64,000 nucleotides of DNA, taken from NCBI GenBank assembly GCA_033763575.1, contig JANRKF010000013.1:81396-145395 (forward strand). The letters are read 5' to 3'. The position numbers were made by a program, and so were the translations under genes. The notes beneath the pieces were generated by a model, which saw nothing but the letters and a program-made list of their open reading frames with translations, made no database searches and was not told the DNA's origin. Origin of the DNA: Alphaproteobacteria bacterium. Lineage in GTDB: Bacteria > Pseudomonadota > Alphaproteobacteria > Rickettsiales > SXRF01. This document shows, one piece after another, positions 13,367 to 48,709 of the stretch (positions are counted from its first letter, which is position 1; each line of letters starts with the position of its first letter).

Positions 13367-13372
13367 AGACAC

Positions 13373-13464
13373 GTCATTGCGAGGAGGCAACGCCAACGAA
13401 GCAATCCATCTCTCAACAAGCGGGGGCATGGATTGCCGCGCTCCCGGTGGTCGCTCGCAATGAC
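13373..13464. repeat. Family-2 palindromic element (GTCATTGCGAG...CTCGCAATGAC)
   Basis: gtcattgcgaggaggcaacgccaacgaagcaatccat...atggattgccgcgctcccggtggtcgctcgcaatgac has terminal and internal inverted repeats. Related copies are at 48027-48105, 39212-39284, 24031-24114 and 32050-32114. Confidence 0.75.
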
Positions 13465-13481
13465 GAGAACGGAGCATTATA

Positions 13482-47314: not shown

Positions 47315-48118
47315 TTAAACCGTCCCGAAGCTCTTAATAAGGCTCCCCGCCAGCATATACCAGCCGTCGATCAGCACAAAGAAAATAATCTTGAACGGCA
47401 GCGAGATCACCACCGGCGGCAGCATCATCATCCCCATCGCCATCAGGATGGAGGCCACCAGCATATCGATGATGATGAACGGGATAAACAGCAGGAAACC
47501 GATCTCGAAAGCGCGTTTCAGCTCACTAATCATGAAGCCGGGAATGAGCACGCGGTAGGGCGTATCGGCAGGCGTTTCGATGGTGAGGCCCGGCGACATA
47601 TCGACAAACAGTTTCAAATCCTGCGCCCGCACATGCGCCAGCATGAAGGCATGAAACGGCGCGCCGATTTTTTCCAGCGCCTCTTTCTCGTCAATGCGCT
47701 CTTCCAGCAACGGCTGCACGCCCTGCTCATACGACGCCTGAAACACCGGCGCCATGATGAACAAAGTAAGGAACAGCGCCAACGAAATGAGCACCTGGTT
47801 GGGCGGCGTCTGTTGCAGGCCGAGCGCGCTTCGCAGCATGGAGAGCACGATGATGATACGCATGAACGAGGTCATCATCACCAGGATCGAAGGCGCAAGG
47901 CTGATGACCGTCATCACGATAATGAGCTGGATCAGCCGCCCGGTCGCGCCGCCGCTGGTGGTGTTCCCGAGGTCGATATTCATCGACTGGGCAAAGGCAT
48001 TATCAGTGTGCATAAACAAGGTTATCGTCATTGCGAGGAGGCATAGCCGACGAAGCAACCCAATTTTCTGATGGCTGGATTGCTTCGCCTGCGGCTCGCA
48101 ATGACGTACATTAAACAT
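47315..48118 (-). CDS. fliP: Flagellar type III export protein FliP
   Basis: ...LIQLIIVMTVISLAPSILVMMTSFMRIIIVLSMLRSALGLQQTPPNQVLISLALFLT is canonical. ATG 48118 overlaps the fliO stop. Residues 5-31 are encoded by a family-2 element. Confidence 0.85.
   Translation of the reverse strand: MFNVRHCEPQAKQSSHQKIGLLRRLCLLAMTITLFMHTDNAFAQSMNIDLGNTTSGGATGRLIQLIIVMTVISLAPSILVMMTSFMRIIIVLSMLRSALGLQQTPPNQVLISLALFLTLFIMAPVFQASYEQGVQPLLEERIDEKEALEKIGAPFHAFMLAHVRAQDLKLFVDMSPGLTIETPADTPYRVLIPGFMISELKRAFEIGFLLFIPFIIIDMLVASILMAMGMMMLPPVVISLPFKIIFFVLIDGWYMLAGSLIKSFGTV
48027..48105. repeat. Family-2 palindromic element inside the 5' end of fliP
   Basis: gtcattgcgaggaggcatagccgacgaagcaacccaattttctgatggctggattgcttcgcctgcggctcgcaatgac. 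Confidence 0.8.
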
Positions 48119-48383
48119 TTTTTTTCTCCACCCGCTCAATCAGTAATTCACTCTGCGGCGAGAGCAGCAGCAAATGTTCCTGTTCGTCGCGCTTGATAAG
48201 CACCAGCCTGCGCCGTGCATCGATCATTTTCGACTCGATAATTTGCAATCTGCCGCCGCCCTTGTGCAGCGCCCAGCCAGGATTGCGCCGCAGCACAAAA
48301 CGCATGGCCAGCGCCGAAAGCCCAATGAGGGCGACCACCAGCACAAAAGACAGCAGCACACGGATAGGATCGACGATGTCCAT
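48111..48383 (-). CDS. fliO: Flagellar biosynthesis protein FliO
   Basis: 90 aa, one TM (LLSFVLVVALIGLSALAM), then ...LQIIESKMIDARRRLVLIKRDEQEHLLLL, and position directly upstream of fliP. Confidence 0.7.
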   Translation of the reverse strand: MDIVDPIRVLLSFVLVVALIGLSALAMRFVLRRNPGWALHKGGGRLQIIESKMIDARRRLVLIKRDEQEHLLLLSPQSELLIERVEKKNV

Positions 48384-48709
48384 TATTCTTTATCCCGCTT
48401 GCCGAAATTATCCCGCGAATCGGCGGTCTGGTAGGCAACGCTGGCATTGCGGTGCTTAGGAATTTCAGCCACATTCCCTGATTGCTCGCGCATTTCATTG
48501 CCGAGCGCATTGAGGTTGGAAAGCAGCTCCTGCAGGCGGCTTTCATAGGTCCGGCGGTCATCATTCGAGAGCGCCTCTATCATGTCGCAAAGCTGGCCGA
48601 TGCGTTCATCCAGTTTATGCATCTCCAGCTCCTCACCGGCGGCCACCGTGGCGCGGCTGGCGGCGATATACTGCTCCATCTCGGTAAAAAGCGGGGCGAT
48701 TTCTGTCAT
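48383..48709 (-). CDS. Hypothetical helical protein in the flagellar export operon
   Basis: 108 aa, start/stop-coupled to fliO and to the FlhB-like gene. No family recognised. Confidence 0.4.
   Translation of the reverse strand: MTEIAPLFTEMEQYIAASRATVAAGEELEMHKLDERIGQLCDMIEALSNDDRRTYESRLQELLSNLNALGNEMREQSGNVAEIPKHRNASVAYQTADSRDNFGKRDKE

What the first reader, a model, noticed from the sequence alone, without database searches (positions are those of the whole stretch)
48027..48118. Palindromic element forms part of the FliP signal peptide
The 79-bp family-2 element lies inside the 5' end of fliP. With ATG 48118 (overlapping the fliO stop) as the start, residues 5-31 (RHCEPQAKQSSHQKIGLLRRLCLLAMT) come from the element. 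That stretch includes the basic n-region (RR) and half of the hydrophobic core of the cleavable signal peptide, which ends NAFAQS.

Alternatively, the element's terminal GTCAT supplies, on the coding strand, an internal ATG (48031-48029). That start would give a minimal signal peptide, MTITLFMHTDNAFA. Either way, a selfish repeat has been co-opted into the targeting sequence of a core flagellar export component.
Basis: partly seen in the sequence, partly recalled or inferred. Interest (0 to 1): 0.6.

Follow-up and report, generated by a model that had tools for sequence, protein, structure and literature searches.

The report
Mobile hairpin repeat inside FliP signal peptide
An 81-base selfish hairpin repeat sits exactly in frame at the start of the flagellar export gene fliP and most likely encodes the charged part and half of the greasy core of its cleaved export signal, and the same thing has happened in several other exported proteins of this genome and repeatedly in FliP of related bacteria.

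Summary
A palindromic element lies at 48026-48106 on the minus strand. It is 81 nt, exactly 27 codons, with 12-bp perfect termini, and it occupies codons 5-31 of fliP. The genome (1.94 Mb, uncultured alphaproteobacterium) holds about 41 copies of the family.

ATG 48118 has a GGAG 7 nt upstream and overlaps the fliO stop, as in the closest relatives that lack the element. Only with the element-coded residues does FliP have a normal signal peptide. Starts at M30 or M36, or removal of the element, leave 3-7 uncharged residues and no basic n-region.

This is part of a wider pattern:
- Ten copies lie in frame in N-terminal export or membrane signals. Seven are in proteins identified by family: FliP, cytochrome c1, CcmH, a sulfate-binding-type protein, CpaC secretin, a redoxin and a lipoprotein hydrolase.
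- All ten use the hydrophobic "..LLAMT" frame. Six copies inside enzymes and one in a TadE leader use the hydrophilic "..PRND" frame.
- 20 of 120 FliP homologues carry repeat-derived N-termini, needing at least 15 changes on the FliP tree.

The element's arms also bracket a small GIY-YIG nuclease gene and resemble the NTS/Ssn repeat.

There is no experimental proof. I rate it a new variant of a known kind, of moderate interest.

The parts
47315..48118 (-). fliP coding sequence (267 codons plus stop) from the start proposed here
   Evidence: ORF and translation. TIGR01103 fliP 293.9 bits, above the 217.45 cut-off. Aligns with solved FliP structures 6s3r and 6f2d. The collection's gene caller started it at M36, giving 232 aa (P0002), which leaves no signal peptide.
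48026..48106 (-). 81-nt palindromic repeat element, equal to codons 5-31 of fliP (RHCEPQAKQSSHQKIGLLRRLCLLAMT)
   Evidence: Inverted repeats. Fold -43.8 kcal/mol, z -6.07. 41 family loci in the genome. 95% identical copy at C30:34392-34472.
48075..48106 (-). 5' arm of the element (CGTCATTGCGAGCCGCAGGCGAAGCAATCCAG), an NTS-like hairpin unit
   Evidence: Exact pattern match. Shares the flanks CGTCATT...AATCCAG with the published NTS, CGTCATTCCCGCGMAVGCGGGAATCYRG (PMC11893778). Does not fit that paper's degenerate SRM pattern.
48026..48062 (-). 3' arm of the element. It encodes GLLRRLCLLAMT, the n-region arginines and the first half of the h-region.
48116..48118 (-). Proposed fliP start codon ATG, overlapping the fliO stop (ATGTTTAA)
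   Evidence: Sequence. The same overlap occurs in P0009/L041 (genes called 265-537 and 530-1270) and in G002.
48126..48129 (-). Shine-Dalgarno-like GGAG, 7 nt upstream of ATG 48118
   Evidence: Sequence. Start table. Conserved GTGGAGAAA in P0009.
47990..48118 (-). Predicted 43-residue signal peptide, with cleavage after AFA (A43|Q44)
   Evidence: The AFAQS / ALAQS motif is conserved in about 120 homologues. HMMER lays own residues 23-264 over Salmonella FliP residues 2-243. h-region statistics.
48029..48031 (-). Judged unlikely.
   Evidence: No SD upstream; lies inside the 12-bp terminal stem. It would give a 7-residue uncharged run with no positive charge.
48111..48383 (-). fliO, translationally coupled to fliP
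   Evidence: ORF. TIGR03500 FliO 34.5 bits, below its cut-off. Pfam FliO (weak) on orthologues.
13372..13465 (.). Second copy of the same repeat family in the window
   Evidence: Terminal motif matches at 13373 and 13464. nhmmer hit C13:94767-94860.

Best explanation
The element. An 81-nt non-autonomous hairpin repeat sits inside fliP. It is an inverted pair of NTS-like arms. Elsewhere in this genome the same arms bracket a small GIY-YIG nuclease gene.

Placement. It lies exactly in frame, 4 codons after the fliP start codon that overlaps the fliO stop.

Translation (inferred). Translation starts at ATG 48118, coupled to fliO, and reads through the hairpin.

The resulting signal peptide (inferred):
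- The 5' arm and loop give a long hydrophilic n-region.
- The 3' arm, read in its hydrophobic frame, gives GLLRRLCLLAMT. This supplies the two arginines and the first half of the hydrophobic core.
- The native remainder, ITLFM-HTDNAFA, completes the core and provides the signal peptidase I site AFA|QS.

Consequence (inferred). The whole 43-residue leader, including every element-coded residue, would be cut off after Sec-dependent insertion. Mature FliP and the FliPQR export gate would be unchanged. That explains why the insertion is tolerated. Because the native part alone is too short to work, the element has become a needed part of the signal.

Shown here: the element, its frame, its family, the comparative signal-peptide statistics, and recurrence in other genes and lineages.

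Not shown here: the start codon actually used, export, cleavage, and the need for the element.
For: 1. Exact in-frame geometry: 81 nt = 27 codons, with codon 5 starting at the first base of the element.

2. ATG 48118 has GGAG at -7. It is positionally orthologous to the fliP start of the closest element-free relatives: ATGCCTAG in P0009 and ATGCCTAA in G002.

3. Signal-peptide metrics:
- With the element: uncharged run 12, charge +4.
- From M30: run 7, charge 0.
- From M36: run 3, net charge -1.
- Element deleted: run 6, charge 0.
- 94 ordinary FliP signal peptides: run 7-20 (median 13), positive charge in 93 of 94.

4. Same-genus genomes have ordinary signal peptides and no element in fliP. 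G001 has no copy of the family at all.

5. In the same genome the family lies in the N-terminal signal of a solute-binding protein (PF13531), cytochrome c1, CpaC secretin, CcmH, a redoxin and a lipoprotein hydrolase.
- In cytochrome c1 the whole h-region (WIAASLALLAV) is element-coded, while 11 relatives have ordinary signals.
- In 7 of these 10 N-terminal copies an ATG with an SD-like motif lies 3-10 codons upstream of the element.

6. Frame partition (alaS read by eye only):
- 10 of 10 N-terminal signal copies end in the hydrophobic frame ..(L/A)AMT or AVT.
- 7 of 7 other in-frame copies end in ..RND or a variant (HND in nadC, RNG in the TadE leader). These are truB, thiC, nadC, a MiaB-like enzyme, alaS, agmatine deiminase and the TadE leader.
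- Hand-calculated exact probability 1/19448.

7. 20 of 120 FliP homologues of the clade carry repeat-derived N-termini from at least 4 repeat families. Parsimony on a tree of the mature FliP region needs at least 15 changes. In P0034, P0044, P0010 and L028 the native remainder is only 9-12 residues.

8. The flagellar system is otherwise intact: FlhA has a 727-aa open frame and flagellins are present. Mature FliP is up to 87% identical to its nearest relatives, without frame defects.
Against: - There is no direct evidence of the start site, export or cleavage.
- No SignalP-type predictor was available. The metrics are simple run-length and charge counts of my own.
- A -44 kcal/mol hairpin begins about 10 nt after the ATG and could hinder initiation.
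- Simple insertion cannot explain why the native part is so short (MFNV + ITLFMHTDNAFA). An accompanying or later deletion of about 8-15 native codons has to be assumed.
- Injectisome homologues (SctR/SpaP) work without a cleaved signal peptide, so a leaderless FliP is not impossible.
- The junction could not be confirmed from independent reads.
Confidence: 0.7

Rival explanations
1. fliP starts at the ATG in the element's terminal repeat (M30, 48031-48029). The element would then be an untranslated intercistronic hairpin between fliO and fliP that donates only the start codon. FliP would carry a minimal leader, MTITLFMHTDNAFA.
For: The terminal repeat ..GCAATGACG puts an ATG in frame in every A- and B-type FliP case. 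In the aat gene (C22:27501-27595) the same terminal ATG looks like the true start of a cytoplasmic enzyme, MTKTLTPELLLSAYAQGIFPMA. One frame of the terminus contains TGA, so only two frames can be open in any case.
Against: No SD is present; CCTCCTCGCA precedes the ATG. The ATG is paired in a perfect 12-bp stem. The leader would have a 7-residue uncharged run and no positive charge, at or beyond the extreme of 94 ordinary FliP signals. In cytochrome c1 and L028 the corresponding remainder cannot be a signal peptide at all. The conserved SD plus ATG overlapping the fliO stop is retained upstream.
Confidence: 0.12
2. Translation starts inside the element at the in-frame TTG (codon 21). This would give a compact 23-residue leader, MLRRLCLLAMTITLFMHTDNAFA. 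The element would still supply the n-region and half the core, but its 5' arm and loop would be untranslated.
For: That leader has canonical length and shape: run 12, charge +2. HMMER lays own residues 23-43 over the Salmonella FliP signal peptide.
Against: Only GGG lies directly before the TTG, so the spacing for an SD is not usable. The TTG lies in the 3' stem arm. The upstream ATG with GGAG is conserved and coupled to fliO.
Confidence: 0.1
3. FliP here has no working signal peptide. It would start at M36 as the gene caller chose, or the gene would be decaying. The element would be a neutral or harmful insertion.
For: The collection's gene call is 232 aa from M36 (P0002). Injectisome SctR proteins lack cleaved leaders (own knowledge).
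Against: The AFA|QS site is intact. Mature FliP is conserved and full length. FlhA, flagellins and neighbouring flagellar genes are intact. The reading frame through the element is open and exactly 27 codons. The same pattern occurs in essential cytochrome c1 and CcmH.
Confidence: 0.05
4. Assembly artefact: the repeat was placed between fliO and fliP by the metagenome assembler.
For: The genome is a metagenome-assembled genome, at about 2.5-5x depth in the only public run found. Logan's contigs break at the repeat, and other copies of the repeat in the sample are far more abundant.
Against: The element is shorter than a read. Both flanks are the expected syntenic neighbours. Without the element the leader would be non-functional. 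Independent assemblies show the same family at the same place in fliP: L043 from a Logan contig and L014 from G020.
Confidence: 0.03

Closest known systems
Rickettsia palindromic elements (RPE-1 to RPE-10; Ogata et al. 2000, 2002, as summarised in PMC10969869 and PMC2229807)
   Same: Short palindromic, hairpin-forming repeats with open reading frames. They are found many times in frame inside unrelated, still-functional protein genes of a small alphaproteobacterial genome. Here that applies to truB, thiC, nadC, alaS, a MiaB-like enzyme and agmatine deiminase.
   Different: The element here is 67-120 nt, against about 100-150 nt for RPEs. No sequence comparison with RPEs was made. The two papers read here do not report RPEs inside signal peptides. 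Here the reading frame used depends on context: hydrophobic in leaders, hydrophilic in enzymes. A nuclease-bearing parent copy is also identifiable.
Yersinia 168-bp YPAL/RU-2 MITE forming part of the predicted signal peptide of YPO1552 (Delihas 2007, described in PMC2229807)
   Same: A MITE reading frame rich in hydrophobic residues is fused in frame to a gene, so that a predicted signal peptide is partly formed by the MITE.
   Different: That case is a hypothetical, possibly new, exported protein. Here the element sits in, and has partly replaced, the native leaders of conserved core proteins (FliP, cytochrome c1, CcmH). It does so recurrently across lineages.
NTS/dRS3 and SRM hairpin repeats with their GIY-YIG single-strand nuclease Ssn (Chenal et al. 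2025, PMC11893778)
   Same: Each arm has the NTS flanks CGTCATT...AATCCAG around a short hairpin. All five small GIY-YIG genes of this genome are bracketed by inverted arms in the repeat-nuclease-repeat layout that the paper describes. One of them carries exactly this family's arms.
   Different: The A-type stem (GCGAG...) does not fit the paper's degenerate SRM pattern. Membership of the nuclease in cd10448/Ssn could not be tested. The paper does not mention in-frame coding copies or signal peptides.
Cleavable signal peptide of Salmonella / E. coli FliP (Ohnishi et al. 1997, from my own knowledge; structures 6f2d, 6s3r)
   Same: An N-terminal Sec-type leader ends in an A-x-A site just before a short periplasmic N-tail and TM1. 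Own residues 23-43 align over it.
   Different: The enterobacterial leader is 21 residues and wholly native. Here it is 43 residues, of which 27 come from a mobile repeat.

Membership tests
In-frame palindromic repeat insertions of the RPE kind | Dispersed multi-copy palindromic repeat with terminal inverted repeats and a stable hairpin | tested here: met
   41 loci in the genome. 12-bp perfect termini. z = -6.07.
In-frame palindromic repeat insertions of the RPE kind | Copies lie inside conserved protein genes without breaking the reading frame, and orthologues lack them | tested here: met
   fliP. cytochrome c1. truB, thiC, nadC, PAD_porph and a radical-SAM enzyme have Pfam matches that span the insert.
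In-frame palindromic repeat insertions of the RPE kind | Sequence homology to a named RPE family | not tested
   No RPE consensus was at hand. Rfam has no match.
NTS/SRM-Ssn repeat-nuclease system (PMC11893778) | Repeat fits the published degenerate SRM pattern HGTCWYN(0-2)YYVSBRHN(0-5)WNVSBRGN(0-2)RNCYNB | tested here: not met
   The A-type arm does not match, while the canonical NTS does. The genome has 76 pattern matches, against 12-17 in shuffles, from other arm variants.
NTS/SRM-Ssn repeat-nuclease system (PMC11893778) | Single-domain GIY-YIG nuclease gene of about 100 aa flanked on both sides by the repeat | tested here: met
   C35:125876-126230 has A-type arms on both sides of a 99-aa GIY-YIG ORF (PF01541, 60.2 bits). 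Four more nuclease genes carry their own arm variants.
NTS/SRM-Ssn repeat-nuclease system (PMC11893778) | Nuclease belongs to cd10448 and cuts its own repeat as single-stranded DNA | not testable with these tools
   No CDD library was available. No NCBIfam or PDB match was found. The activity test needs an enzyme assay.
Sec-type cleavable signal peptide | Positively charged n-region, uncharged hydrophobic core of about 7-20 residues, and small residues at -3 and -1 | tested here: met
   From ATG 48118: net charge +4 before a 12-residue run, LCLLAMTITLFM, then HTDNAFA|QS. This is within the range of 94 ordinary FliP leaders.
Sec-type cleavable signal peptide | Actual export and cleavage | not testable with these tools
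   Needs proteomics or reporter fusions. No SignalP was available.
FliP (flagellar type III export gate, TIGR01103 / PF00813) | Full-length match above the curated cut-off | tested here: met
   293.9 bits against 217.45. Structures 6s3r and 6f2d match at E about 1e-64 to 1e-68.

The most novel reading that the evidence does not exclude
Hairpin repeats of the NTS/Ssn type may act as portable signal-peptide cassettes. One reading frame of the arm encodes a basic-then-hydrophobic stretch (..RR-LCLLAMT / ..WIASLALLAMT / ..WIPAFAGMT).

Copies that land a few codons after a start codon fuse to, and then replace, the native leaders of core exported proteins such as FliP, cytochrome c1, CcmH, binding proteins and secretins. 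The native hydrophobic core is later trimmed.

The placement 3-10 codons after start codons may reflect a preference of the GIY-YIG element for gene starts. Two nuclease-bearing copies sit at gene starts with duplications of at least 23 nt of the start region.
Probability: 0.35. Interest if true: 0.7.

Novelty: new variant of a known kind. Interest (0 to 1): 0.5.

Why it matters
If confirmed, selfish DNA would not merely be tolerated in loops of enzymes. It would be repeatedly recruited to build the export signals of core, even essential, envelope proteins.

That would give:
- a concrete route by which signal peptides turn over so quickly;
- a natural set of "swapped" leaders for studying what a Sec signal needs;
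- a coding-level consequence for the recently described Ssn/NTS hairpin-nuclease systems, which have so far been discussed only as non-coding DNA signals.

There is also a practical point. Gene callers mis-start such genes. fliP here was called from M36, without a leader. Secretome predictions for genomes rich in these repeats will therefore be biased.

Tried and rejected
- **Independent read support.** The one public run with this organism holds it at about 2.5-5x depth. Logan's contigs stop at 48016 and resume at 48325, so the junction is neither confirmed nor contradicted.
- **Empty site in a conspecific strain.** No FliP closer than 87% identity exists in the 5.8-billion-protein collection.
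- **Known RNA family, terminator or promoter at the hairpin.** No Rfam match at E <= 1. No terminator-like or promoter-like site in the element.
- **Target-site duplication.** None of the 41 short copies shows a significant flank duplication.
- **Remnants of the element in the signal-peptide DNA of relatives.**
  - nhmmer at E <= 10 finds the family only in L014, L043 and L026, and not in same-genus loci or P0009.
  - A 15-of-17 match of P0009's leader DNA to the element's right end has shuffle p about 0.003. With about 32 targets tested, I leave it unresolved.
- **Published SRM pattern.** The A-type arm does not fit.
- **Finer naming of the GIY-YIG protein.** No NCBIfam or PDB hit.
- **Literature search by peptide or DNA motif (AFAGMT, APRNDG, GTCATTGCGAG).** Only chance primer hits.
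- **Twin-arginine (Tat) signal reading of LLRRLC.** Rejected by inspection. There is no S/T-R-R-x-F-L-K context, and FliP is a polytopic membrane protein.
Full report
**What is there**

On the minus strand, fliO (48383-48111) ends with TAA at 48113-48111. An ATG at 48118-48116 overlaps that stop (ATGTTTAA) and opens a 267-codon frame that is FliP. It scores 293.9 bits on TIGR01103, above the 217.45 cut-off, and aligns with solved FliP structures.

Four codons after this ATG begins an 81-nt palindrome, 48106 down to 48026. Its termini are 12-bp perfect inverted repeats, CGTCATTGCGAG / CTCGCAATGACG. Inner arms of 17 nt are 82% complementary, around a loop of about 13 nt. As RNA it folds at -43.8 kcal/mol, z = -6.07.

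The element is exactly 27 codons and begins and ends on codon boundaries.

**It is a repeat family**

BLAST finds 32 matches in the window's own 1.94-Mb assembly. An iterated nhmmer profile finds 41 loci of 67-120 nt. The closest copy, C30:34392-34472, is 95% identical over all 81 nt. A second copy lies in the window at 13372-13465.

Among 24 relatives the family is patchy:
- none in same-genus G001;
- 10 copies in G002;
- 36 or more in G013, G014 and G031;
- none in 9 of the 24 relatives, G001 included.

No Rfam family, terminator-like site or promoter-like site coincides with the element. The short copies have no detectable target-site duplication.

**Where does fliP start?**

ATG 48118 has GGAG (48129-48126) 7 nt upstream. 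The nearest FliP relative is P0009, 87% identical. It has no element, and its called genes overlap in the same way: fliO 265-537 and fliP 530-1270, ATGCCTAG, preceded by the same GTGGAGAAA. Same-genus G002 has ATGCCTAA. ATG 48118 is therefore the positional orthologue of the ordinary fliP start, and the element lies downstream of it, inside the gene.

It is also paired in the perfect terminal stem. The collection's gene caller chose M36 (P0002, 232 aa), which leaves no leader at all.

An in-frame TTG at codon 21 would give a compact leader, MLRRLCLLAMTITLFMHTDNAFA, but has no usable ribosome-binding site. In that variant the element still supplies the n-region and half the core.

**Does the leader need the element?**

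I compared 120 FliP homologues of the clade. I measured the longest run free of D, E, K, R, N, Q, H and P before the conserved AxA|QS site, and the net charge before that run.

| Leader | Length | Uncharged run | Net charge before run |
|---|---|---|---|
| 94 element-free leaders | 19-42 (median 24) | 7-20 (median 13) | positive in 93 of 94 |
| Own, from ATG 48118 | 43 | 12 (LCLLAMTITLFM) | +4 |
| Own, from M30 | 14 | 7 | 0 |
| Own, from M36 | 8 | 3 | -1 |
| Own, element deleted (MFNV + ITLFMHTDNAFA) | 16 | 6 | 0 |

Only with the element-coded part does FliP have an ordinary leader. HMMER lays own residues 23-264 over residues 2-243 of Salmonella FliP. This places RRLCLLAMTITLFMHTDNAFA over the enterobacterial signal peptide, which from my own knowledge (Ohnishi et al. 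1997) is cleaved.

These are simple counts of my own, not a trained predictor. Nothing here measures translation or cleavage.

Same-genus relatives have different, ordinary leaders:
- G001: MRNYLNRFLIIFAALILFYAPDSFA;
- G002: M..LAWGVVFAGVALCAAPAFA.

G001 lacks the repeat family entirely. FlhA (727-aa open frame) and flagellin genes are present. Mature FliP is conserved, so the gene does not look dead.

**The same thing elsewhere in this genome**

Of the 41 copies, ten lie in frame in the N-terminal signal region of a downstream gene. An eleventh lies in the cleaved leader of a TadE pseudopilin. Pfam names seven of the ten as typical exported proteins:
- FliP;
- a PF13531 solute-binding protein of the sulfate-binding type;
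- cytochrome c1;
- CpaC secretin;
- CcmH;
- a redoxin/thioredoxin-like protein;
- an S33 hydrolase with a lipobox (LLAAC) right after the element.

In cytochrome c1 the leader is MKKEMIT[SLRVKRSNPAKKIWIAASLALLAVT]TLEAHA|SS. The whole hydrophobic core is element-coded. Eleven relatives have ordinary leaders such as MKIFSVLFISSLMMVNVAYA|SS.

In 7 of the 10 N-terminal copies an ATG with an SD-like motif lies 3-10 codons upstream of the element.

Other copies are internal, in-frame inserts in enzymes. They occur in truB, thiC, nadC, a MiaB-like radical-SAM enzyme and agmatine deiminase, where the Pfam matches span the insert. One more is in alaS, read by eye.

**Frame depends on context**

The 3' arm can be read three ways:
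- hydrophobic (..LLAMT);
- basic and hydrophilic (..GLLRR.APRND);
- through a TGA stop.

All 10 signal-region copies end in the hydrophobic frame. All 7 other in-frame copies (six in enzymes and the TadE leader) end in the hydrophilic frame or a variant of it: HND in nadC, RNG in TadE. By my hand calculation the exact probability of such a perfect split is 1/19448.

The 95%-identical sister copy in nadC is read as SSLRAAGEAIQPSENWIAASAMPPHND. The fliP copy is read as RHCEPQAKQSSHQKIGLLRRLCLLAMT.

Leader-coding DNA can hardly exceed about 2% of the genome; this figure is my estimate, not measured. Seven to ten of 41 copies in leaders is therefore a large excess.

**Recurrence in FliP of relatives**

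Twenty of the 120 homologues have repeat-derived N-termini, from at least four repeat families:
- ..LAMT;
- ..PAFAGMT, the canonical NTS type;
- CHPALVAGS..KNGVT;
- PSPLRGEG-type repeats, the VTPAQAGG..RLRGND repeat of P0097, and others.

On a maximum-likelihood tree of the mature FliP region, parsimony needs 15 changes (18 when the families are kept apart). The window's FliP pairs with element-free P0009. P0010 carries the same family but is nested among element-free sequences with 95% support.

nhmmer confirms the same family at the same site in L043 (P0010) and L014 (G020).

In several genes the native remainder after the element is only 9-12 residues:
- P0034: MGSKWLAWIPVFAGMT|LLFMHPALA;
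- P0010: ..WIVASLALLAMT|GIFFATPAFA;
- L028: ..WIPAFAGMT|ILLASPALA.

In others it is still a full core, which gives over-long hydrophobic runs of 22-27 residues. This spread suggests, but does not prove, a path: insertion, then fusion of the two hydrophobic parts, then trimming of the native core.

**What the element is**

At C35:125876-126230 the same arms bracket a 99-codon ORF with a GIY-YIG domain (PF01541, 60.2 bits). The genome has five such small nuclease genes. Each lies between inverted GTCAT...ATC / GAT...ATGAC arms with its own stem variant.

This is the repeat-nuclease-repeat layout described for NTS/SRM repeats and the single-strand nuclease Ssn (PMC11893778). The published NTS, CGTCATTCCCGCGMAVGCGGGAATCYRG, shares both flanks with the arm here, CGTCATTGCGAGCCGCAGGCGAAGCAATCCAG. 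However, the arm fails that paper's degenerate SRM pattern. The nuclease could not be assigned to cd10448.

I therefore say it works like, and is probably related to, that system. I do not file it as a member. The 81-nt fliP element is best described as a nuclease-less inverted pair of such arms.

**Precedent**

Three earlier lines of work are close:
- In-frame palindromic repeats are classic for Rickettsia (RPEs; PMC10969869).
- A predicted signal peptide partly formed by a MITE was noted for one hypothetical Yersinia protein (Delihas 2007, in PMC2229807).
- The 2024 MITE review and the Ssn paper do not mention signal peptides or coding copies.

What is new here is the host gene (a core flagellar export-gate subunit), the partial replacement of native leaders in conserved proteins, the context-dependent frame, the recurrence, and the link to GIY-YIG hairpin repeats.

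Earlier notes of this scan report similar elements in leaders in other phyla. They are unchecked leads, not support.

**Weak points**

- There is no experimental evidence.
- The junction is unverified by independent reads.
- The signal-peptide metric is home-made.
- The loss of native codons has to be assumed.
- The strong hairpin begins about 10 nt after the ATG. It may make fliP translation depend on ribosomes arriving from fliO; this is my inference.

**Verdict**

I give it about 0.7, plus about 0.1 for the TTG variant, which keeps the same conclusion.

Noticed in passing
own genome C35:125876-126230 (outside the window): A 355-nt unit in which the same arms as the fliP element bracket a 99-codon GIY-YIG nuclease ORF. 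It is the likely autonomous or parent form of the 41 short copies.
   Followed up: partly
own genome C24:134794-135183 and C15:39236-39610: Two other nuclease-bearing hairpin units sit just after gene starts; one is in the lpdA-like gene (MTEQNFDVVVIGGGPGG). They are flanked by direct duplications of the target's SD-plus-start region: at least 23 nt by alignment, about 35-48 nt by eye. The downstream gene stays intact. This is unusually long for a target duplication and hints at insertion near start codons.
   Followed up: partly
L041 (P0009 contig) 530-600: The closest element-free FliP has TGCCTCTGCTCGCAATG in its leader DNA. That is the right end of the element with a 2-nt gap (shuffle p about 0.003, uncorrected for about 32 targets). 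It could be an eroded remnant, a microhomology used at insertion, or chance.
   Followed up: partly
own genome C22:27501-27595: In the leucyl/phenylalanyl-tRNA protein transferase gene (aat), the ATG of the element's terminal repeat appears to be the real start codon (MTKTLTPELLLSAYAQGIFPMA). The repeat may also donate start codons.
   Followed up: no
own genome C11:83169-83258: A copy lies in frame, in the hydrophilic frame, in the N-terminal leader of a TadE-like pseudopilin. It sits just before the G|ATEF-type prepilin peptidase site, which is another cleaved leader hosting the repeat.
   Followed up: no
window 47315-48010 (P0002): The public gene call for fliP starts at M36 (232 aa), downstream of the element and without any signal peptide. 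Repeat-rich 5' ends mislead gene callers.
   Followed up: yes
L017 (G015), L028 (G016), L022 (G013), L035 (G034): Other repeat families lie between the fliO stop and the FliP hydrophobic core in other genera: NTS-type ..PAFAGMT, CHPALVAG..KNGVT and VIPAQAGIQ. In G015 and G016 the element starts 6-9 codons after an ATG near the fliO stop.
   Followed up: partly
window 48383-48709 (-): The 108-aa ORF between the FlhB-C-like gene and fliO has no NCBIfam match. It is conserved in position in the P0004 contig (107 aa, no Pfam).
   Followed up: no
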